A stretch of 13,222 nt of DNA, taken from the IMG/VR virus record IMGVR_UViG_2654588181_000002, positions 1 through 13,222 of that record. The stretch is one strand, 5' to 3'. Under the pieces are notes generated by a model. It saw only the letters and a program-made list of their open reading frames with translations, did not search any database and had not been told where the DNA came from. The first letter of the stretch is position 1. Every line of letters begins with the position of its first letter. The translations under genes were made by a program, and so were the position numbers. Source of the stretch: a virus (lineage: Duplodnaviria > Heunggongvirae > Uroviricota > Caudoviricetes). Shown here in pieces: positions 1-12,958 of the stretch.

Positions 1-315
1 GATAATGGTTCATGCTACCGGGCTAATGAAACACGGCAGTTTGCCCGGATGTTGGGGCTTGAACCGAAGAACACGGCGGTGCGGAGTCCGGAGAGTAACG
101 GCATAGCAGAGAGCTTCGTGAAAACGATAAAGCGTGACTACATCAGTATCATGCCTAAACCAGACGGGTTAACGGCAGCAAAGAACCTTGCAGAGGCGTT
201 CGAGCATTATAACGAATGGCATCCGCATAGTGCACTGGGTTATCGCTCGCCACGGGAATATCTGCGGCAGCAGGCCAGTAATGGGTTAAGTGATAACAGG
301 TGTCTGGAAATATAG
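1..315 (+). CDS. insD: IS2 OrfB/InsD-type transposase, C-terminal fragment (5' end outside window)
   Basis: Translation from position 1: [104 protein letters not shown]. Recognised from memory as the IS2 InsD C-terminus. The ORF track lists only the internal Met at 49. Confidence 0.8.
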
Positions 316-2041: not shown

Positions 2042-2870
2042 GACGATGCCCTCCGCTGATATTCAGGAGACGGTGAATATGAAAATTAGCCTTATCCGCC
2101 AGACGAATACGTTCAGCTTGCAAGTTAAGAAGGGTTTCTACCAGAACCTGATGTGCCTGCGGATCCGAAAGAGTTACCTTGCGCAGAGCACGTAGTGCAG
2201 CTGTTACATAACTGAGTTTATGTAAGTCTTCATCATTCAGACGAGTGAGGGCTGGGACAGTAGCCATGATGGCAGCCTCCTTGATCGGTGAAATACTTCC
2301 ACCACCGGAAACGCCAATTTCGCTGGTGGTGAACTGAACGGGGTTGGCGTAACCGGTGATCAAGGAAACCGGCGCATCTTTCGATGCCCCCGCCCAGCCC
2401 ACCATAACTTTGATGTGAGCAAATGCGGACGATAAAAAAGACGCTGGCGCGTCATATATCGCCTTGATCAATTCCAGGACGCCAATCCCGGCACCCGCTT
2501 TATAAGGTGCCTGAACAGTGTAACGTCCCGGAATGGCAGAATCAATGTGCTGGTGGTCCTTCACACTCAACAAAATCACGCCTGAATTTCCACAAAGGGC
2601 TAAAGCACTCATGCGGGTAGTCTTTGCGAAGATAGATAACGCGCTGTGTTTCTGGCTCCCAACGAATAACATGAACATAAAGTCCTCTTCCGTCACGAAA
2701 CCAGCGGTTAAGTTCCTGCACAACTCGCCCCCCACAGTCAGGTAAAGTTCTCTGTGGTTACTTACAGCCAGGAGATTTGGTAATCTGCATTCATGCCGTA
2801 ACAACAGGTGTTCAGCGACGCTGACCACCAGCTGTTGCGACAAACGGTTATTTGCCGTTAAACTGTTCAT
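2034..2870 (-). CDS. hypothetical protein (278 aa) in the lambdoid replication-gene position; function unknown
   Basis: Long ORF with ATGA overlap to the upstream CII-like gene (2867-2870). No Walker A/P-loop, no N-terminal HTH and no other motif I can assign. Confidence 0.6.
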   Translation of the reverse strand: MNSLTANNRLSQQLVVSVAEHLLLRHECRLPNLLAVSNHRELYLTVGGELCRNLTAGFVTEEDFMFMLFVGSQKHSALSIFAKTTRMSALALCGNSGVILLSVKDHQHIDSAIPGRYTVQAPYKAGAGIGVLELIKAIYDAPASFLSSAFAHIKVMVGWAGASKDAPVSLITGYANPVQFTTSEIGVSGGGSISPIKEAAIMATVPALTRLNDEDLHKLSYVTAALRALRKVTLSDPQAHQVLVETLLNLQAERIRLADKANFHIHRLLNISGGHRHA

Positions 2871-3436: not shown

Positions 3437-3467
3437 CGTTCTGTGGTTAAAAATTGAAAGTGTTCTG

Positions 3468-3668
3468 CTAATCTTTCGGATAGATATCCGGTCTTAAGTC
3501 AGATTTCGTAATTGCACCTGACGTGCATTGCTCAAGTTTTTTAGCCAGCACAAAACTGGCTTTTTTATAGCCATTGAAAACCAGCCGTAAGTAGCCAGGT
3601 GTTGAGCCAACTTTTCCGGCCAACTCGCCCTGCTGTTCTTTGGTTAAAGAGTCCCAATACGCTTTCAT
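3468..3668 (-). CDS. Cro-like HTH regulator (YdaS/CroE-like)
   Basis: 66-aa product MKAYWDSLTKEQQGELAGKVGSTPGYLRLVFNGYKKASFVLAKKLEQCTSGAITKSDLRPDIYPKD, divergent from the CI-like gene. GGAGG lies 10 nt upstream of the chosen ATG (3666-3668). The longer ORF-track version (to 3971) would overlap the repressor gene and is rejected. Confidence 0.7.
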   Translation of the reverse strand: MKAYWDSLTKEQQGELAGKVGSTPGYLRLVFNGYKKASFVLAKKLEQCTSGAITKSDLRPDIYPKD

Positions 3669-3670
3669 AC

Positions 3671-3758
3671 AATATGTACCTCCGGTGTACATATTACATG
3701 ATTGAAATGAACCTTCAAGATACTTGTACCTTAACGGTACAAGAGTTTTAATTTCGTT
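3671..3758. promoter_or_regulatory. divergent immunity-switch control region: two inverted-repeat operators plus candidate pR (minus) and pRM (plus) promoters
   Basis: Operator 1 is AATATGTAC-N7-GTACATATT (3671-3695, perfect 9-bp arms). Operator 2 is CTTGTACC-TTAAC-GGTACAAG (3723-3743, perfect 8-bp arms). Candidate pR on minus strand: -35 TTGAAG (3719..3714), 17-bp spacer, -10 TAATAT (3696..3691), overlapping operator 1. Candidate pRM on plus strand: -35 TTGTAC (3724-3729), 17-bp spacer, -10 TTTAAT (3747-3752), ending about 7 nt before the repressor ATG. Confidence 0.6.
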
Positions 3759-4433
3759 ATGAAAACAATCCATGACATCCGGCGGTCTAACGCCAGAAAA
3801 CTGAGAGATGGTGTTGGCGGGAATTCTTCCTTTGCCACTATGATTGATCGCGAGCCAACCCAGACCAGCAGGTTTATGGGAGATGGTGCTACTAAAAATA
3901 TCGGTGACAGCATGGCACGACACATCGAAAAATGTTTCGACCTGCCTGTCGGATGGCTCGATCAAGAACACCAGACAACGAACATCACAAAAAAACCTGA
4001 TGTTTCAATCACTAATAAACAAATCACATTAGTCCCTGTCATATCATGGGTACAGGCCGGAGCATGGAAAGAAGTTGGATATTCTGAGGTTGATTTGAGC
4101 ACAGCAGAAACGTATCCCTGCCCTGTACCCTGTGGGGAAATGACTTATATCTTGCGGGTGATAGGTGATTCAATGATTGATGAGTACCGCCCGGGAGACA
4201 TGATTTTTGTCGATCCTGAAGTACCTGCCTGCCACGGTGACGACGTTATTGCATTGATGCACGATACAGGTGAAACCACCTTCAAAAGGTTGATAGAAGA
4301 TGGGACACAGCGTTATCTCAAAGCGTTAAACCCAAACTGGCCTGAGCCTTACATTAAGATCAACGGTAATTGCTCTATAATTGGTACAGTGATTTTCTCA
4401 GGAAAACCAAGAAGATACAAAATCAAAGCCTAA
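3759..4433 (+). CDS. CI-like prophage repressor (HTH + LexA-like S24 autopeptidase domain; CohE-like)
   Basis: 224 aa with an N-terminal HTH region and a C-terminal S24-type domain (VIGDSM... and FKRL Ser/Lys dyad context). Divergent from the Cro-like gene, and no Shine-Dalgarno before the ATG, consistent with a leaderless pRM transcript. Confidence 0.9.
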   Translation: MKTIHDIRRSNARKLRDGVGGNSSFATMIDREPTQTSRFMGDGATKNIGDSMARHIEKCFDLPVGWLDQEHQTTNITKKPDVSITNKQITLVPVISWVQAGAWKEVGYSEVDLSTAETYPCPVPCGEMTYILRVIGDSMIDEYRPGDMIFVDPEVPACHGDDVIALMHDTGETTFKRLIEDGTQRYLKALNPNWPEPYIKINGNCSIIGTVIFSGKPRRYKIKA

Positions 4434-4444
4434 TCAATGTTTAT

Positions 4445-4468
4445 GAACCTGCTTCGGCAGGTTTTTTT
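4445..4468 (+). terminator. intrinsic terminator downstream of the repressor gene
   Basis: ACCTGC-TTCG-GCAGGT hairpin (4447-4462, UUCG tetraloop) followed by a run of seven T (4462-4468), 12 nt after the repressor stop. Confidence 0.75.
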
Positions 4469-4472
4469 ATAC

Positions 4473-4505
4473 TTGACAATGTACCTTTGAGATACATAAT
4501 GTACC
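4473..4505 (+). promoter_or_regulatory. candidate early-left promoter (pL-like) with repressor half-sites
   Basis: -35 TTGACA (4473-4478), 16-bp spacer, -10 CATAAT (4495-4500). The ATGTACC motif occurs twice (4480-4486 and 4499-5505 region, second copy at 4499-4505), sharing the GTAC core of the operators at 3671-3743. Confidence 0.6.
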
Positions 4506-4582
4506 CAAGCGAAACAACGAACAGGCAGGACGCCCACGAAGTAGCCGCCTGGGGCATATGAAGTCCAGGATGATTCGTTAGC

Positions 4583-4608
4583 AACAAAAAAGCGCCTACA
4601 GGACGCTT
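4583..4608 (-). terminator. candidate intrinsic terminator on the minus strand, downstream of the 4845-5279 gene
   Basis: Minus strand reads AAGCGTC-CTGTA-GGCGCTT followed by TTTTGTTGC (plus coordinates 4590-4608 for the hairpin, A-run 4586-4591). It lies about 240 nt beyond the minus-strand gene's stop and inside the 5' leader of the plus-strand 68-aa gene. Confidence 0.45.
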
Positions 4609-4666
4609 AGCTCTTTAACAATCTGGTCCCCATCAACAAGTAACTGATAACTTGAGGAGATGTGAA

Positions 4667-4873
4667 ATGCACAAAACAGAACCCAAAATCGTCGCGCCTG
4701 GCTACACAGATGAGGAAATTTATGAGTGGATGACAAAGAAGCTGGCAGCTATAAACCAGCTTCGTGAAGTGCTGTCTTATCGACAGGAAACAATAGACTC
4801 CTTAAAAAAACTGGATCAGGAAATCACGGTTTTATCACAGGATGTTACTTTAGATATTGTGCAGACAAATTAG
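4667..4873 (+). CDS. hypothetical small acidic, predicted coiled-coil protein (68 aa), first gene after pL
   Basis: ATG at 4667 preceded by GAGGAG (4655-4660); the ORF-track 4652 start would be a TTG. Product MHKTEPKIVAPGYTDEEIYEWMTKKLAAINQLREVLSYRQETIDSLKKLDQEITVLSQDVTLDIVQTN. Not N-like (not Arg-rich). The 3' end overlaps the convergent minus-strand gene by 29 nt. Confidence 0.5.
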   Translation: MHKTEPKIVAPGYTDEEIYEWMTKKLAAINQLREVLSYRQETIDSLKKLDQEITVLSQDVTLDIVQTN

Positions 4874-5279
4874 GATCCCATTCATTTTCGTCAAAATCAT
4901 CAAAGTGATGAATTTGTGATCTCCAGTCTCGATAATCTAAAAATTTCTGGGCGGTTACGCTTATTTTATCAAGTGTGAGTTCATCCTGAATTGAAAGAAG
5001 AAGTTCATCAAATTTCATCTCATTAATCTGTTTTGGCATCCAGTGATGCTTCATCAGAATAAGGTGAACCAGAGCCTTTTTCCCATTCAACTGATTATAG
5101 GGAGTGCCGAATTTCTTCCGGTGCTCATGTAAGACAAGGTCCAAAAGAGTAAGTAATGTTGCCCTTGATTCAACTTTGCTTATTTCGACTGATGACACTA
5201 CCCCACTGATTTCAATGCCCCGATACTTTCCAACATTTTCACAGTGGGATTTGTACAGCGTATAGATATTACCGGACAT
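4845..5279 (-). CDS. hypothetical protein (144 aa), AT-rich antisense 'moron' gene; function unknown
   Basis: Clean 144-codon ORF opposite to all neighbouring early-left genes, visibly more AT-rich than its flanks, with an AGGA-like RBS upstream of the ATG (5277-5279) and its own candidate terminator. No family recognised. Confidence 0.6.
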   Translation of the reverse strand: MSGNIYTLYKSHCENVGKYRGIEISGVVSSVEISKVESRATLLTLLDLVLHEHRKKFGTPYNQLNGKKALVHLILMKHHWMPKQINEMKFDELLLSIQDELTLDKISVTAQKFLDYRDWRSQIHHFDDFDENEWDPNLSAQYLK

Positions 5280-5294
5280 TTCTTTTCCTTTTGC

Positions 5295-5343
5295 GTTGTT
5301 GGGGATAACCAGATTAACCGAATCCTTGTTGTTGGGGAATAAC
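5295..5343. repeat. two direct copies of GTTGTTGGGGA(A)TAAC, 33 bp apart, just upstream of the 4845-5279 gene
   Basis: 5295-5309 GTTGTTGGGGATAAC and 5328-5343 GTTGTTGGGGAATAAC. Position fits a regulator binding site or promoter element for the minus-strand gene. Confidence 0.4.
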
Positions 5344-5605
5344 TAGGTCCACCTCGCCTGATGTGGCTAAAAGCAGGCACATAACAGCTAAGTATTTTCA
5401 ACCAGAGAGAATCCTTAGCGTTGTGGTGAATGCGGCTCAGCGCACGCGGGTTAAGGTTGAGGCTGACAGTCGACCTTCTGTGGATACCCACCCGCCTGGT
5501 GTGCAACCTTCGCCAGGCACCGGGAGGCACCCGGCACCACAACTTTATGCTGTGTGTAGTCTTGGCGGTACCAGCTTGTACCCTTGCTTCCGGCTGGTAC
5601 CGTCC

Positions 5606-5704
5606 TTTTTACAAAACAGAGAAGAGCATCACCGGACGACGGGCTCATAACCCAATCCATCCGGGCGGCAGTCACCGCAGGTGTTCTTCTCTGTTTTGTG
5701 GAGA
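5606..5704. other. long imperfect palindrome / stem-loop within a GC-rich non-coding block
   Basis: Perfect 14-bp inverted repeat ACAAAACAGAGAAG (5611-5624) / CTTCTCTGTTTTGT (5686-5699), extendable with wobbles to about 20 bp, enclosing a ~49-nt GC-rich loop. No flanking U-run on either strand, so not a classical terminator. Confidence 0.4.
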
Positions 5705-5747
5705 AACTAACCGACCTTGCAGGGTCGATATGATGAGGAGCAGCAAA

Positions 5748-6110
5748 ATGGCTAGCGAACGCAGTACTGATGTGCAGGCATTTATCGGGGAGCTGGACGG
5801 CGGCGTATTTGAAACCAAAATCGGCGCAGTTCTCAGTGAAGTCGCTTCCGGTGTGATGAACACGAAAACCAAAGGTAAGGTCTCGCTCAACCTAGAAATC
5901 GAACCGTTTGATGAGAACCGAGTGAAAATCAAACACAAACTCTCATATGTTCGCCCGACTAACCGCGGGAAAATTTCCGAAGAAGACACCACCGAAACGC
6001 CGATGTATGTCAATCGCGGTGGTCGCCTGACTATTCTGCAGGAAGACCAGGGACAGTTGCTGACTCTTGCCGGTGAACCTGACGGAAAACTCCGCGCAGC
6101 AGGTCGTTAA
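5748..6110 (+). CDS. YfdP-like prophage protein (120 aa), function unknown
   Basis: Start at ATG 5748 (MASERSTDVQAFIGELDGG...) preceded by GAGGAG (5735-5740). The ORF-track extension back to 5430 translates to Arg/Cys/His-rich sequence typical of GC-rich non-coding DNA and is rejected. First gene of a block recalled as the CPS-53 yfdPQRST-like cluster. Confidence 0.65.
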   Translation: MASERSTDVQAFIGELDGGVFETKIGAVLSEVASGVMNTKTKGKVSLNLEIEPFDENRVKIKHKLSYVRPTNRGKISEEDTTETPMYVNRGGRLTILQEDQGQLLTLAGEPDGKLRAAGR

Positions 6111-12682: not shown

Positions 12683-12958
12683 GTGGCTTCTGTTTCTATC
12701 AGCTGTCCCTCCTGTTCAGCTACTGACGGGGTGGTGCGTAACGGCAAAAGCACCGCCGGACATCAGCGCTATCTCTGCTCTCACTGCCGTAAAACATGGC
12801 AACTGCAGTTCACTTACACCGCTTCTCAACCCGGTACGCACCAGAAAATCATTGATATGGCCATGAATGGCGTTGGATGCCGGGCAACCGCACGCATTAT
12901 GGGCGTTAGCCTCAACACGATTTTACGCCACTTAAAAAACTCAGGCCGCAGTCGGTAA
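12683..12958 (+). CDS. insA: IS1 InsA (transposition inhibitor / N-terminal part of the InsAB' transposase)
   Basis: 91-aa product [91 protein letters not shown] with a zinc-finger-like CxxC...CxxC N-terminus. Confidence 0.95.

What the first reader, a model, noticed from the sequence alone, without database searches (positions are those of the whole stretch)
5295..5343. Direct repeats GTTGTTGGGGA(A)TAAC upstream of the antisense gene
Two near-identical 15-16-bp copies lie 33 bp apart (about three helical turns), 16-60 bp upstream of the minus-strand gene's start codon. This is the geometry expected for a dimeric or tandem-binding regulator controlling that gene independently of the prophage repressor, whose operators have a different GTAC-core motif.
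Basis: seen in the sequence. Interest (0 to 1): 0.35.

Follow-up and report, generated by a model that had tools for sequence, protein, structure and literature searches.

The report
Junction of a swappable prophage gene slot
The two repeats are real, but rather than a private switch for the gene beside them they are the conserved right-hand edge of a portable slot that lets SfV/e14-type prophages carry different backwards-facing cargo genes, and they most likely base-pair with a distant inverted copy next to a ribosomal-RNA-type antitermination signal (boxA).

Summary
The repeats are at the stated coordinates (5295-5309, 5328-5343, 33 bp apart). Within this window alone they are weak evidence: an 11-nt close repeat occurs somewhere in 14% of shuffles. 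Comparison with related loci makes them real. They are conserved in more than 50 distinct versions of the junction, including Buttiauxella and Kluyvera.

They do not follow the ECs1072-family gene. The same junction sits upstream of at least 7 unrelated minus-strand cargo genes.

An inverted third copy lies at 4620-4640. It directly follows a minus-strand terminator hairpin and an exact rrn/T7-type boxA (GCTCTTTAACAAT, + strand), about 100 nt downstream of the likely PL promoter. Left arm and copy 1 co-vary between cargo types. In one divergent module the left arm matches copy 2 instead. Wobble pairs favour the + strand.

Best reading (about 0.45): in the early-left (+) transcript the repeats are the distal strands of a long-range helix closing off the antisense cargo, laid out like the boxA plus 16S processing stem of rRNA operons. 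On the minus strand they overlap the only conserved, weak promoter candidate for the cargo gene.

No evidence supports a protein operator pair. No RNA ends, cleavage or binding were tested.

The parts
4473..4516 (+). Likely early-left promoter (PL-like) TTGACA-16-CATAAT, overlapped by two operator-like ATGTAC-N7-(G/A)TACAT sites
   Evidence: One search gives an 11/12 consensus match. The palindromes resemble those between cI and cro at 3674-3745. The promoter role is inferred from consensus only.
4513..4579 (+). Conserved leader shared by all relatives, including phages with other immunity regions; left limit of the variable region
   Evidence: homology of SfV, e14, SfII, mEp460 and ST64B ends at 4577-4582.
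4584..4608 (-). Intrinsic terminator of the minus-strand cargo gene (stem 4590-4608; the U-run is the A-run 4584-4589 on the + strand)
   Evidence: The hairpin is more stable on the minus strand in 32 of 35 distinct variants, mean -12.2 against -7.9 kcal/mol.
4610..4622 (+). boxA (GCTCTTTA) plus spacer (ACAAT), identical to the rrn antiterminator; the 18-mer GCTCTTTAACAATCTGGT is also identical to phage T7 nt 813-830
   Evidence: unique in the window, 0.09 expected. (PMC2724277): the rrn oligo is CACugcucuuuaacaauuua. Searches show the rrn leader. One search shows T7. The element is present in 65 of 65 distinct minus-cargo inserts and absent from plus-cargo relatives.
4620..4640 (.). Left arm: inverted copy of the repeat (AATCTGGTCCCCATCAACAAG)
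   Evidence: (I3, I4). In the MFE of the 914-nt + RNA it pairs with 5295-5315 through 17 bp.
4667..4873 (+). Small + strand ORF (68 aa, phrog_1744) inside the cassette, converging on the cargo gene and overlapping it by 29 nt
   Evidence: SD GAGGAG lies 7 nt upstream of the ATG.
4845..5279 (-). Cargo gene of this cassette: ECs1072-family phage-associated protein (144 aa), function unknown
   Evidence: NF033230, 157.8 bits; phrog_5286. No Pfam or PADLOC hit.
5295..5315 (.). Copy 1 of the finding plus CCAGATT: the right arm of the inverted repeat. On the minus strand it is the start of the cargo 5' leader.
   Evidence: It varies with cargo type and co-varies with the left arm.
5311..5339 (-). 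Only sigma-70-like candidate on the minus strand that is conserved in position: -35 TTCCCC (5339-5334), 17 nt, -10 TAATCT (5316-5311)
   Evidence: best-scoring site at the same position in 39 of 40 distinct modules. It is weak (5.7 bits). Some variants have TATAAT (9.3 bits). The stricter scan did not report it.
5320..5349 (.). Copy 2 of the finding with its flanks (GAATCCTTGTTGTTGGGGAATAACTAGGTC): the constant part of the junction. Position 5349 is the recurrent mosaic breakpoint.
   Evidence: breakpoint at 5349; 97% or more conserved. It is 13/14 complementary to 4627-4640 (I4).
5349..5386 (+). Conserved tail of the junction, with two interleaved short helices possible (CCAC 5349-5352 with GTGG 5363-5366; GCCTG 5356-5360 with CAGGC 5374-5378)
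   Evidence: One compensatory change was seen (CUAC/GUAG in L227). The structure is not established.
5390..5613 (+). STnc100/PasD-family small-RNA-like element ending in an intrinsic terminator (stem 5566-5602). It contains a degenerate third repeat copy at 5409-5431.
   Evidence: 43.4 bits, E 9.4e-08, below the gathering score of 47; D5, D6, I10; for the family.

Best explanation
The repeats are the right-hand junction of a portable slot for backwards-facing cargo genes (morons) inside the early-left operon of SfV/SfIV/e14-type prophages.

Layout of the slot, left to right on the + strand:
- a hairpin that terminates the minus-strand cargo transcript;
- an rrn/T7-type boxA that can only act in the + strand RNA made from PL;
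- a left arm;
- the cargo;
- a right arm (copy 1 plus CCAGATT);
- copy 2;
- a short conserved tail.

Proposed mechanism. When PL fires, RNA polymerase must cross roughly 1.2 kb of mostly untranslated RNA, part of it antisense, before it reaches yfdP. boxA recruits NusB/S10 and the other Nus factors, which protect against Rho as they do in rRNA operons. The arm that starts at the end of boxA then pairs with copy 1, or alternatively with copy 2, as soon as that sequence is transcribed. This closes a 17-20 bp long-range helix that loops out the antisense cargo. The helix is a possible RNase III site, as for 16S rRNA.

On the other strand the same DNA carries the only conserved, weak promoter candidate and the C/A-rich 5' leader of the cargo gene. 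That could explain why copy 2 and the fixed spacing are conserved.

Shown here: the anatomy, its conservation, the co-variation, the boxA identity and the rrn-like layout. Inferred: promoter use, Nus and Rho involvement, helix formation in vivo, the strand on which pairing matters, and any cleavage.
For: 1. Portability. SfV, e14, SfII, mEp460 and another E. coli prophage share the window only up to about 4579 and from 5349 onwards. PhiR29_1 and L010 keep 4580-4626 and 5295 onwards but carry other genes. At least 7 unrelated cargo families were found, all on the minus strand.

2. boxA. The sequence is an exact GCTCTTTAACAAT, the rrn boxA plus spacer (PMC2724277). The 18-mer is identical in the T7 early leader. 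It is present in 65 of 65 distinct minus-cargo inserts and absent from plus-cargo relatives.

3. The inverted repeat is kept in every cargo type, with type-specific arms: ATGACT in type C, GTAACCCTC in type E, AACAACAATTA in type F1 and AATCTGAATACC in L140. Own arms match better than arms from other types (permutation p = 0.005). On 40 distinct arm pairs, 81% of cells are paired against 76.1 +/- 0.8 in shuffles. Fifteen of 22 pairs change on both sides against 9.9 +/- 1.2, and 0 of 500 shuffles reach the observed values. Sliding the register drops pairing to 28-48%.

4. In L191 both GTTGTTGGGG motifs are replaced, yet the inner left arm matches copy 2 at 10 of 11 positions.

5. Strand bias. 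The arms are more stable as + RNA in 31 of 39 distinct pairs, while the neighbouring hairpin is more stable as minus RNA in 32 of 35. Paired cells are 81.0% on the + strand against 76.5% on the minus strand.

6. MFE folds of the full-length RNA close the long-range helix in the window and in most cargo types.

7. rrn has the same layout. boxA is at 2001-2013, the 5' arm starts at 2014, and its partner lies just after 16S. In unrelated viral contigs the same boxA 18-mer is also followed by an arm whose perfect 18-bp partner lies about 310 nt downstream (L235).
Against: - There is no transcript, 5'-end, cleavage or binding data for either strand.
- The strand bias is confounded. The right arm is nearly invariant and the left arm is C/A-rich, so transitions in the left arm give + strand G-U pairs by composition.
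- The helix is predicted on both strands.
- Co-variation could come from gene conversion between the arms or from shared ancestry. The tool's shuffle control does not remove relatedness.
- The outer 7 nt of the left arm (AATCTGG) are conserved in T7, where no such distal partner was looked for or seen, so they may be constrained as boxA spacer rather than as helix.
- The helix model does not explain why copy 2 is so strongly conserved; the promoter reading does that better.
- e14 carries a minus-strand gene (ymfI) in this region without boxA.
- Relatives with + strand cargo still have about 400 nt of untranslated RNA and an intrinsic terminator (5566-5610) upstream of yfdP without any boxA. 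boxA is therefore not the family's general answer to termination.
Confidence: 0.45

Rival explanations
1. Cargo promoter and leader only. The repeats matter as DNA and as 5' leader on the minus strand. Copy 2 carries the -35 (TTCCCC), CCAGATTA carries the -10 (TAATCT), and copy 1 is the initial transcribed, C/A-rich (AAC AAC AAG, Hfq-type ARN) leader that promotes translation. The inverted copy on the left is then a by-product.
For: - The best sigma-70-like site lies at the same place in 39 of 40 distinct modules. It improves to TATAAT or TATTAT in some variants.
- Two invariant blocks are separated by a variable spacer of fixed length, 16-17 nt.
- ECs1072 mRNA is detectable in a lysogen (microarray, PMC2241611).
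Against: - The match is poor (6 of 12; 5.7 bits) and the stricter scan did not report it.
- This reading does not explain why the distant left arm changes in step with copy 1 at positions that would lie at or upstream of the predicted transcription start (types C and E, L140).
- It does not explain L191.
Confidence: 0.2
2. Pairing within the minus-strand cargo mRNA. The C/A-rich 5' leader (the reverse complement of copies 1 and 2) pairs with the G/U-rich 3' UTR just upstream of the terminator. The result is either protection or translational control through 5'-3' end pairing, or a 3'-UTR-derived Hfq-type small RNA whose seed targets its own leader.
For: - The helix is also in the MFE of the minus RNA.
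- The 3' arm lies between the stop codon and the terminator in every cargo type.
- A G/U-rich stretch, then an A/U-rich stretch, a hairpin and a U-tail resemble 3'-UTR small RNAs. This comparison is from my own knowledge.
- The co-variation fits this reading equally well (76.5% paired, 15 pairs with changes on both sides).
Against: - It needs a transcription start upstream of 5316 (5343 if copy 2 takes part), and no promoter candidate exists there.
- Non-Watson-Crick positions favour the + strand (against 92).
- It leaves the exact boxA on the other strand as a coincidence of position.
Confidence: 0.15
3. The two direct repeats are operators for a dimeric or tandem-binding protein that represses or activates the cargo promoter independently of CI.
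For: - There are two conserved copies three helical turns apart that overlap the -35 and +1 regions of the candidate promoter.
- In L227 both copies carry the same G-to-T change. That could be co-evolution with a factor, or gene conversion.
Against: - No regulator travels with the module. Cargo, immunity region and host genus all vary.
- The motif is not found elsewhere in representative genomes.
- Types C and E and L191 lack one or both motifs but keep complementarity with the left arm.
- The motif shows no resemblance to the CI operators.
Confidence: 0.1
4. No function of their own. The repeats and their inverted copy are conserved linker sequences at a recombination hotspot, homology anchors through which cassettes are exchanged. 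They are kept alike by gene conversion or recent spread.
For: - Mosaic breakpoints fall exactly at the arms and at 5349.
- Most sampled modules are closely related enterobacterial prophages.
Against: - The junction stays 82-89% identical in Buttiauxella and Kluyvera while the flanks diverge.
- The spacer between the blocks varies while the blocks do not.
- Arms of quite different sequence remain complementary.
- Tests for mobile-element or invertible-segment features fail. There is no consistent target duplication, all cargo has one orientation, and no recombinase is present.
Confidence: 0.1

Closest known systems
rRNA operon leader: boxB hairpin, boxA, boxC and the long-range RNase III stem flanking 16S rRNA
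   Same: - The boxA plus spacer sequence is identical (GCUCUUUAACAAU).
- A hairpin lies just upstream.
- The 5' strand of a long-range inverted repeat starts at the end of boxA, and its partner follows a long untranslated RNA (searches compared).
- Nus factors are reported to loop the RNA between boxA and the polymerase (PMC5725501).
   Different: - The enclosed RNA here is the antisense of a protein-coding cargo gene (about 650 nt), not a structural RNA.
- The helix is shorter (17-20 bp against 48 nt arms).
- There are two tandem candidate 3' partners.
- The upstream hairpin is optimised for the opposite strand, where it acts as a terminator.
- Nothing is known about Nus binding or RNase III cleavage at this site.
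Phage nut sites and the T7 early leader (boxA followed by an RNase III site)
   Same: - boxA lies about 100 nt downstream of an early promoter.
- The 18-mer is identical to T7 nt 813-830.
- From my own knowledge, lambda nutL is followed by an RNase III-processed leader and T7 boxA precedes the R0.3 site.
   Different: - No N-like protein or boxB next to boxA was identified.
- boxA here belongs to the swappable cassette, not to the phage backbone. Relatives with + strand cargo lack it.
Morons (promoter, gene, terminator units in lambdoid prophages)
   Same: - A single accessory gene of unknown function lies between repressor and early genes, with its own terminator.
- It is expressed in the lysogen.
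- Unrelated genes are exchanged at the same site.
   Different: Standardised junctions are shared by unrelated cargo. They include a boxA on the opposite strand and co-varying inverted arms. As far as I could find, this is not part of the moron concept.
Tandem operator sites of a transcription factor
   Same: Two similar 15-21 bp sites lie on the same helical face and overlap a candidate promoter.
   Different: There is no cognate regulator and no regulon. The sequence is replaceable as long as complementarity with a distant inverted copy is kept.
5'-3' UTR pairing and 3'-UTR-derived small RNAs (icaR in S. aureus; DapZ/CpxQ-type small RNAs), cited from my own knowledge
   Same: A C/A-rich leader is complementary to a G/U-rich stretch just upstream of the mRNA's own terminator.
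   Different: This requires a transcription start upstream of the repeats, for which no candidate was found. The wobble bias points to the other strand.

Membership tests
boxA / Nus-factor antitermination element (rrn type) | boxA consensus UGCUCUUUA followed by the spacer ACAAU | tested here: met
   4610-4622 reads GCTCTTTAACAAT. That is 8 of 9 in boxA (first base A instead of U) and 5 of 5 in the spacer. See (PMC2724277). The 18-mer is identical in T7.
boxA / Nus-factor antitermination element (rrn type) | Located in the sense orientation in the leader of a long transcription unit, downstream of its promoter | tested here: inconclusive
   A consensus promoter (11/12) with operator-like sites lies at 4473-4516 on the same strand, about 100 nt upstream. 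No transcript data were available.
boxA / Nus-factor antitermination element (rrn type) | Binds NusB-S10 and suppresses Rho-dependent termination | not testable with these tools
   This needs binding assays, or reporter assays with nusB/nusE mutants and bicyclomycin.
Long-range processing helix (16S rRNA type, RNase III substrate) | Two complementary segments flank a long RNA, with the 5' strand next to boxA | tested here: met
   4620-4637 pairs with 5295-5315 through 17 bp in the MFE. The helix is kept in most cargo types. The rrn layout was verified.
Long-range processing helix (16S rRNA type, RNase III substrate) | Complementarity maintained through compensatory change | tested here: met
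   15 of 22 pairs change on both sides and 0 of 500 shuffles reach the observed values. Caveats: the sequences are related, and the inner arm was aligned without gaps.
Long-range processing helix (16S rRNA type, RNase III substrate) | Cleaved by RNase III in vivo | not testable with these tools
   This needs 5'/3' end mapping in rnc+ and rnc- lysogens after induction.
Operator pair of a DNA-binding regulator | Repeated site overlapping or next to the regulated promoter | tested here: inconclusive
   The repeats overlap the only candidate promoter, which is weak. The promoter itself is unverified.
Operator pair of a DNA-binding regulator | A cognate regulator encoded nearby or conserved with the site | tested here: not met
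   The module occurs with unrelated cargo, different immunity regions and different genera, and no shared protein-coding gene sits inside it.
Operator pair of a DNA-binding regulator | Site sequence conserved as such, and further sites elsewhere (a regulon) | tested here: not met
   Types C and E and L191 replace the motif but keep complementarity. The copy 2 19-mer is found only in this module among species-representative genomes.
Moron (autonomous promoter, gene, terminator) | Own terminator downstream of the gene | tested here: met
   A minus-strand hairpin plus U-run lies at 4608-4584. It is favoured on the minus strand in 32 of 35 variants.
Moron (autonomous promoter, gene, terminator) | Own promoter | tested here: inconclusive
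   Only the weak TTCCCC-17-TAATCT candidate was found. Expression in a lysogen has been reported.
Invertible segment or transposable element with terminal inverted repeats | Both orientations seen in a population; a recombinase or transposase; target-site duplication | tested here: not met
   All cargo genes are on the minus strand relative to boxA. No recombinase lies in the cassette. The flanking AAC/AAC is not kept in the TATA variants.
Integron attC site | Core sites GTTRRRY / RYYYAAC | tested here: not met
   GTTGTTG and GGATAAC do not fit the core consensus (read directly; the consensus is from my own knowledge).

The most novel reading that the evidence does not exclude
Temperate enterobacterial phages use a standard, self-contained adaptor to carry antisense cargo genes inside an essential early operon. 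The adaptor supplies:
- a terminator for the cargo;
- on the opposite strand, an rRNA-operon-type boxA that makes the host operon's polymerase resistant to Rho across the untranslated antisense stretch;
- a co-evolving closing helix, with two alternative distal strands (the finding's repeats), that loops out or excises the antisense RNA.

This would be the rRNA transcription and processing logic co-opted as plug-and-play insulation for accessory or defence genes.
Probability: 0.3. Interest if true: 0.75.

Novelty: new variant of a known kind. Interest (0 to 1): 0.55.

Why it matters
Prophage accessory genes between the repressor and the early genes are a major source of superinfection-exclusion, defence and virulence functions. 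How they are inserted without crippling the operon they interrupt is rarely considered.

A standard junction pair gives three things:
- A sequence signature, hairpin-GCTCTTTAACAATCTGG ... CCAGATTA-N13-GTTGTTGGGGAATA, for finding new cargo genes. At least 7 unrelated families of unknown function turned up in a few hundred loci.
- A concrete and testable case of boxA/Nus use outside rRNA, nut sites, suhB and CRISPR leaders.
- A natural system for testing whether Nus complexes promote long-range RNA helix formation on a non-ribosomal RNA.

The module is common. About half of complete E. coli genomes match parts of this region. About 400 of 5426 carry this ECs1072 version almost in full.

Tried and rejected
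- Rfam at gathering score finds nothing at the repeats. At relaxed threshold it finds only the neighbouring STnc100-like element.
- AgvB-type anti-sRNA idea (a C/A-rich GcvB mimic): Rfam holds AgvB (RF02702) and gave no hit. The supplements of the EHEC Hfq-CRAC and RNase E-CLASH papers hold no entry for ECs1070-1073.
- Literature search for the motif returned only unrelated primers. 'ECs1072' gave one microarray table.
- Shared 5' UTR hypothesis (both convergent genes carrying the same leader): rejected. Cargo types B, C and F have no + strand ORF after the left arm, yet keep the arm.
- Invertible switch, transposon ends and integron attC: rejected (see the membership table).
- An outer helix between CAACAAAAAAG (4582-4592) and copy 2: rejected, because that left segment is not conserved in divergent modules.
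- Sigma-54, sigma-32 and sigma-E readings of the junction were checked by eye. None is conserved across variants, so they were dropped.
- A + strand promoter for the STnc100-like RNA in 5350-5389: no convincing -10/-35.
- Using wobble pairs to assign the strand: suggestive but confounded by arm composition and by the near-invariance of the right arm.
- Pfam and PADLOC searches of cargo proteins gave no significant families.
Full report
**Observation.** GTTGTTGGGGATAAC is at 5295-5309 and GTTGTTGGGGAATAAC at 5328-5343, with starts 33 bp apart. They lie upstream of the ATG (5279) of the minus-strand ORF 4845-5279. As a within-window observation this is weak. The 15-mer with up to 3 mismatches occurs twice against 0.38 expected, with 14 of 200 shuffles reaching two. 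An exact 11-nt direct repeat within 12-60 nt turns up somewhere in 14% of shuffled windows. What makes the repeats real is comparison with other loci, described below.

**Context.** The window is the immunity and early-left end of an SfV/SfIV/e14-type prophage integrated at tRNA-Thr(CGU), next to proA and proB. The map is as follows:
- cro-like ymfT at about 3467-3667 (-) and the cI-like S24 repressor at 3759-4433 (+);
- the repressor's terminator at 4445-4464;
- a near-consensus + strand promoter at 4473-4500, overlapped by ATGTAC-N7-GTACAT-type palindromes like those between cI and cro, which I read as PL/OL;
- a small + ORF at 4667-4873 (phrog_1744);
- the ECs1072-family gene at 4845-5279 (-);
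- 470 bp without a convincing ORF;
- yfdP (5748-6110), yfdQ, yfdR, yfdS, yfdT, xis and int, all on the + strand.

The minus-strand gene therefore sits backwards inside the early-left transcription unit.

**The repeats belong to a swappable slot, not to the gene.** About half of complete E. coli genomes match parts of 4434-5750, but only about 400 of 5426 match it almost in full. Piecewise comparison shows two nested sets of breakpoints. SfV, e14, SfII, mEp460 and another prophage share the window only up to about 4579 and again from 5349, and they carry mainly + strand genes in between. PhiR29_1 and L010 share 4580-4626 and 5295 (or 5276) onwards, but carry different minus-strand genes.

A scan of viral contigs with the right-hand anchor gave 114 loci with both anchors, falling into about ten insert sizes. 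All inserts with a minus-strand gene begin with AGCAACAAAAAAGCGCCCTACAGGACGCTTAGCTCTTTAACAATCTGG. They end with ...CCAGATTAACCGAATCCTTGTTGTTGGGGAATAACCAGGTCC.

The genes between these ends fall into five families with no detectable similarity to one another. Further scans raised this to at least seven. They include an ECs1072 family, a coiled-coil plus zinc-ribbon family, a signal-peptide family, two kinds of membrane protein and others. None has a Pfam or PADLOC assignment.

The copy 2 19-mer was searched in one genome per bacterial species. It was found in Escherichia, Shigella, Buttiauxella and Kluyvera, always in this module. In the non-Escherichia cases only about 90 bp (5295-5386) remain similar to the window. 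Across 57 distinct right junctions the blocks CCAGATTA and GTTGTTGGGGAATA are 97% or more conserved. The 13-16 nt between them and the gene-proximal side vary.

**A third, inverted copy.** The repeat finder reported that 4620-4640 (AATCTGGTCCCCATCAACAAG) is the inverted complement of copy 1 plus its 3' flank (GTTGTTGGGGATAACCAGATT). It is also 13/14 complementary to copy 2 (I3 and I4).

Every cargo type has such an inverted repeat at the two ends of the cargo, and the arms differ between types while staying complementary:
- AATCTGGATATCCACAACA against TGTTGGGGATATCCAGATT in type B;
- AATCTGGATGACT against AGTCATCCAGATT in type C, which has no GTTGTTGGGG at copy 1;
- GTAACCCTC against GAGGGTTAC in type E;
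- AACAACAATTA on both sides in type F1;
- AATCTGAATACC against GGTATTCAGATT in L140.

A left arm matches its own right arm better than the right arms of other types (permutation p = 0.005). On an ungapped alignment of 40 distinct arm pairs, 81.0% of cells form standard pairs, against 76.1 +/- 0.8 after shuffling partners. Fifteen of 22 pairs show changes on both sides, against 9.9 +/- 1.2. In both cases 0 of 500 shuffles reach the observed value. Sliding the register by 1-3 columns drops pairing to 28-48%.

In L191 both GTTGTTGGGG motifs are replaced. The outer arm still pairs with the copy 1 position through 14 bp, and the inner left arm (TTTTACTACAG) matches the copy 2 position (CTGTAGTGAAA) at 10 of 11 positions. 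Both of the finding's repeats therefore behave as partners of the distant left arm. This is hard to reconcile with a fixed protein-binding site.

**boxA.** Immediately to the left of the left arm, the + strand reads GCTCTTTAACAAT (4610-4622). This is the rrn boxA (UGCUCUUUA) plus its spacer (ACAAU), as given in PMC2724277. The rrn leader I recalled from memory matches all E. coli genomes, at a median of 7 places per genome. The 18-mer GCTCTTTAACAATCTGGT is also identical to nt 813-830 of phage T7, in the early leader downstream of promoters A1-A3. The same 18-mer occurs in many unrelated viral contigs.

Within this phage family, boxA is present in all 65 distinct inserts whose longest ORF is on the minus strand. 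It is absent from the inserts with + strand cargo and from SfV, e14, ST64B, mEp460, SfII and cdtI in this region. Some modules have a different hairpin upstream of boxA but keep boxA and the arms (L140, L151, L182).

The hairpin between the A-run and boxA is a terminator for the minus strand. It is more stable on the minus strand in 32 of 35 distinct variants. The left junction is therefore read on both strands: as a terminator for the cargo, and as boxA for the operon it interrupts.

**Comparison with rRNA operons.** In an E. coli rrn operon, boxA is at 2001-2013 of locus L253. The 5' arm of the inverted repeat that flanks 16S starts at 2014, and its partner lies just after 16S. The prophage module has the same order: hairpin, boxA, 5' arm starting at the end of boxA, about 650 nt of RNA, and then the 3' arm (copy 1), followed 13 nt later by a second candidate partner (copy 2).

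MFE folds of the 914-nt + RNA pair 4620-4637 with 5295-5315. Most other cargo types also close the helix, once with copy 2. Nus complexes are reported to hold boxA RNA at the polymerase and so form a loop (PMC5725501). The RNase III stem of 16S is textbook knowledge. In at least one unrelated viral contig (L235) the same boxA 18-mer is followed by an arm whose perfect 18-bp partner lies about 310 nt downstream, beyond the first ORF.

**Which strand?** For perfectly complementary arms the duplex is the same on either strand. Only non-Watson-Crick positions can discriminate. The arms are more stable as + RNA in 31 of 39 distinct pairs, mean -25.3 against -22.4 kcal/mol. Paired cells are 81.0% on the + strand and 76.5% on the minus strand, because many left arms have U where the right arm has G. 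The neighbouring terminator hairpin shows the opposite bias, which serves as an internal control.

This favours the PL (+) transcript but does not prove it. The right arm hardly varies, and the left arm is rich in C and A, so transitions in the left arm give + strand wobbles by composition alone.

**The other strand.** A position-weight scan of the minus strand of 40 distinct junctions puts the best sigma-70-like site at the same place in 39 of them. The -35 is TTCCCC (5339-5334, inside copy 2), followed by 17 nt and then a -10 of TAATCT (5316-5311, the complement of CCAGATTA). Some variants have TATAAT or TATTAT at that position. The match is weak, and the stricter scan did not report it.

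If this site is used, transcription would start inside copy 1. That would give a C/A-rich leader (CCCCAACAAC...AAGGAAAAGAA-AUG). It would also explain the conservation of copy 2 and the fixed spacing better than the helix model does. ECs1072 mRNA is detectable in an O157 lysogen. I therefore regard the junction as probably dual-coded.

**Downstream.** 5390-5613 (+) matches the prophage small-RNA family STnc100 just below the gathering score (43.4 bits against 47; E 9.4e-08), a family recently linked to PasD. Its 3' end is the hairpin 5566-5602 plus a T-run. Its 5' part contains a degenerate third direct copy of the repeat (GAATCCTTAGCGTTGTGGTGAAT, 5409-5431), which in the family model pairs with CACCACAAC further downstream.

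**Verdict.**
- The operator interpretation is not supported, apart from its general point that this is a control region independent of CI.
- The best-supported explanation (about 0.45) is that the repeats are the distal strands of a boxA-adjacent long-range helix in the early-left RNA, within a portable slot for antisense cargo, and that they overlap the cargo's weak promoter and leader on the other strand.
- The rivals are: promoter and leader only (0.2), 5'-3' pairing within the cargo mRNA (0.15), a protein operator pair (0.1), and recombination linkers without function (0.1).
- All functional steps remain inferred: promoter use, Nus binding, Rho protection, helix formation and cleavage.

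I found no description of this module in the searchable literature. I class it as a new variant of known kinds: boxA/Nus antitermination, rrn-type closing helix, and moron.

Noticed in passing
window 4610-4622 (+): An exact rrn-type boxA plus spacer (GCTCTTTAACAAT) lies about 100 nt downstream of the PL-like promoter. The 18-mer is identical to phage T7 nt 813-830. It is present only in relatives that carry minus-strand cargo.
   Followed up: yes
window 5390-5613 (+): An STnc100/PasD-family small-RNA-like element scores just below Rfam's gathering score (43.4 against 47 bits). Its terminator stem (5566-5602) is the 'GTAC' cluster that looked like operators. The region 5551-5605 also gives a faint DicF-like match (E 0.26).
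   Followed up: partly
window 5349-5378 (+): The conserved tail of the junction can form two interleaved short helices (CCAC/GTGG and GCCTG/CAGGC) with an A-rich connecting loop, an H-type pseudoknot topology. One compensatory change was seen (CUAC/GUAG in L227), along with mixed one-sided changes. The structure is not established.
   Followed up: partly
window 5611-5699: A 25-nt inverted repeat (84% complementary, 39 nt between the arms) lies right after the small-RNA terminator and upstream of yfdP. It is unexplained.
   Followed up: no
window 2322-2510 (-): A C4 antisense RNA (82.3 bits) and isrK (64.2 bits) lie in tandem, a P1/P7-type immI-like antirepressor control region. They fall inside the mechanically called 278-aa ORF 2034-2870, whose N-terminal part is therefore probably not coding. 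The same pair accompanies the module in L140 and L179.
   Followed up: no
window 4667-4873 (+) and 4845-5279 (-): The small + ORF (68 aa, phrog_1744, strong SD) converges on the ECs1072-family gene and overlaps its 3' end by 29 nt. Other ECs1072-type cassettes (L153) also pair a small + ORF with the minus-strand gene, and e14 has a similar ymfJ/ymfI pair. This may be a two-gene unit expressed from opposite promoters.
   Followed up: partly
window 4646-4669 and 5727-5750: The ribosome-binding regions of the small + ORF and of yfdP are alike (GATAACTTGAGGAGATGTGAAATG and GATATGATGAGGAGCAGCAAAATG; 71% over 24 nt).
   Followed up: no
window 49-315 and 12683-12958: An IS3-family transposase C-terminal fragment lies at the left edge, next to tail-fibre and tail-fibre-assembly remnants (444-1506). 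An IS1 InsA-like ORF lies beyond proB. The prophage looks truncated to its immunity and early-left end.
   Followed up: no
loci L216, L230, L235 (viral contigs): In unrelated phages the same boxA 18-mer is followed by an arm whose inverted partner lies about 310-730 nt downstream, beyond the first ORF (a perfect 18 bp in L235). L216 has two such boxA copies 389 nt apart. These may be boxA-adjacent processing helices in other phage early operons.
   Followed up: partly
loci L012-L251 (cargo genes between the junctions): At least seven unrelated small proteins of unknown function occupy the slot. They include a coiled-coil plus zinc-ribbon family (22 distinct sequences), a two-transmembrane family, a signal-peptide family with a faint LprI-like match, and a four-transmembrane protein. 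None matches Pfam or PADLOC significantly.
   Followed up: partly
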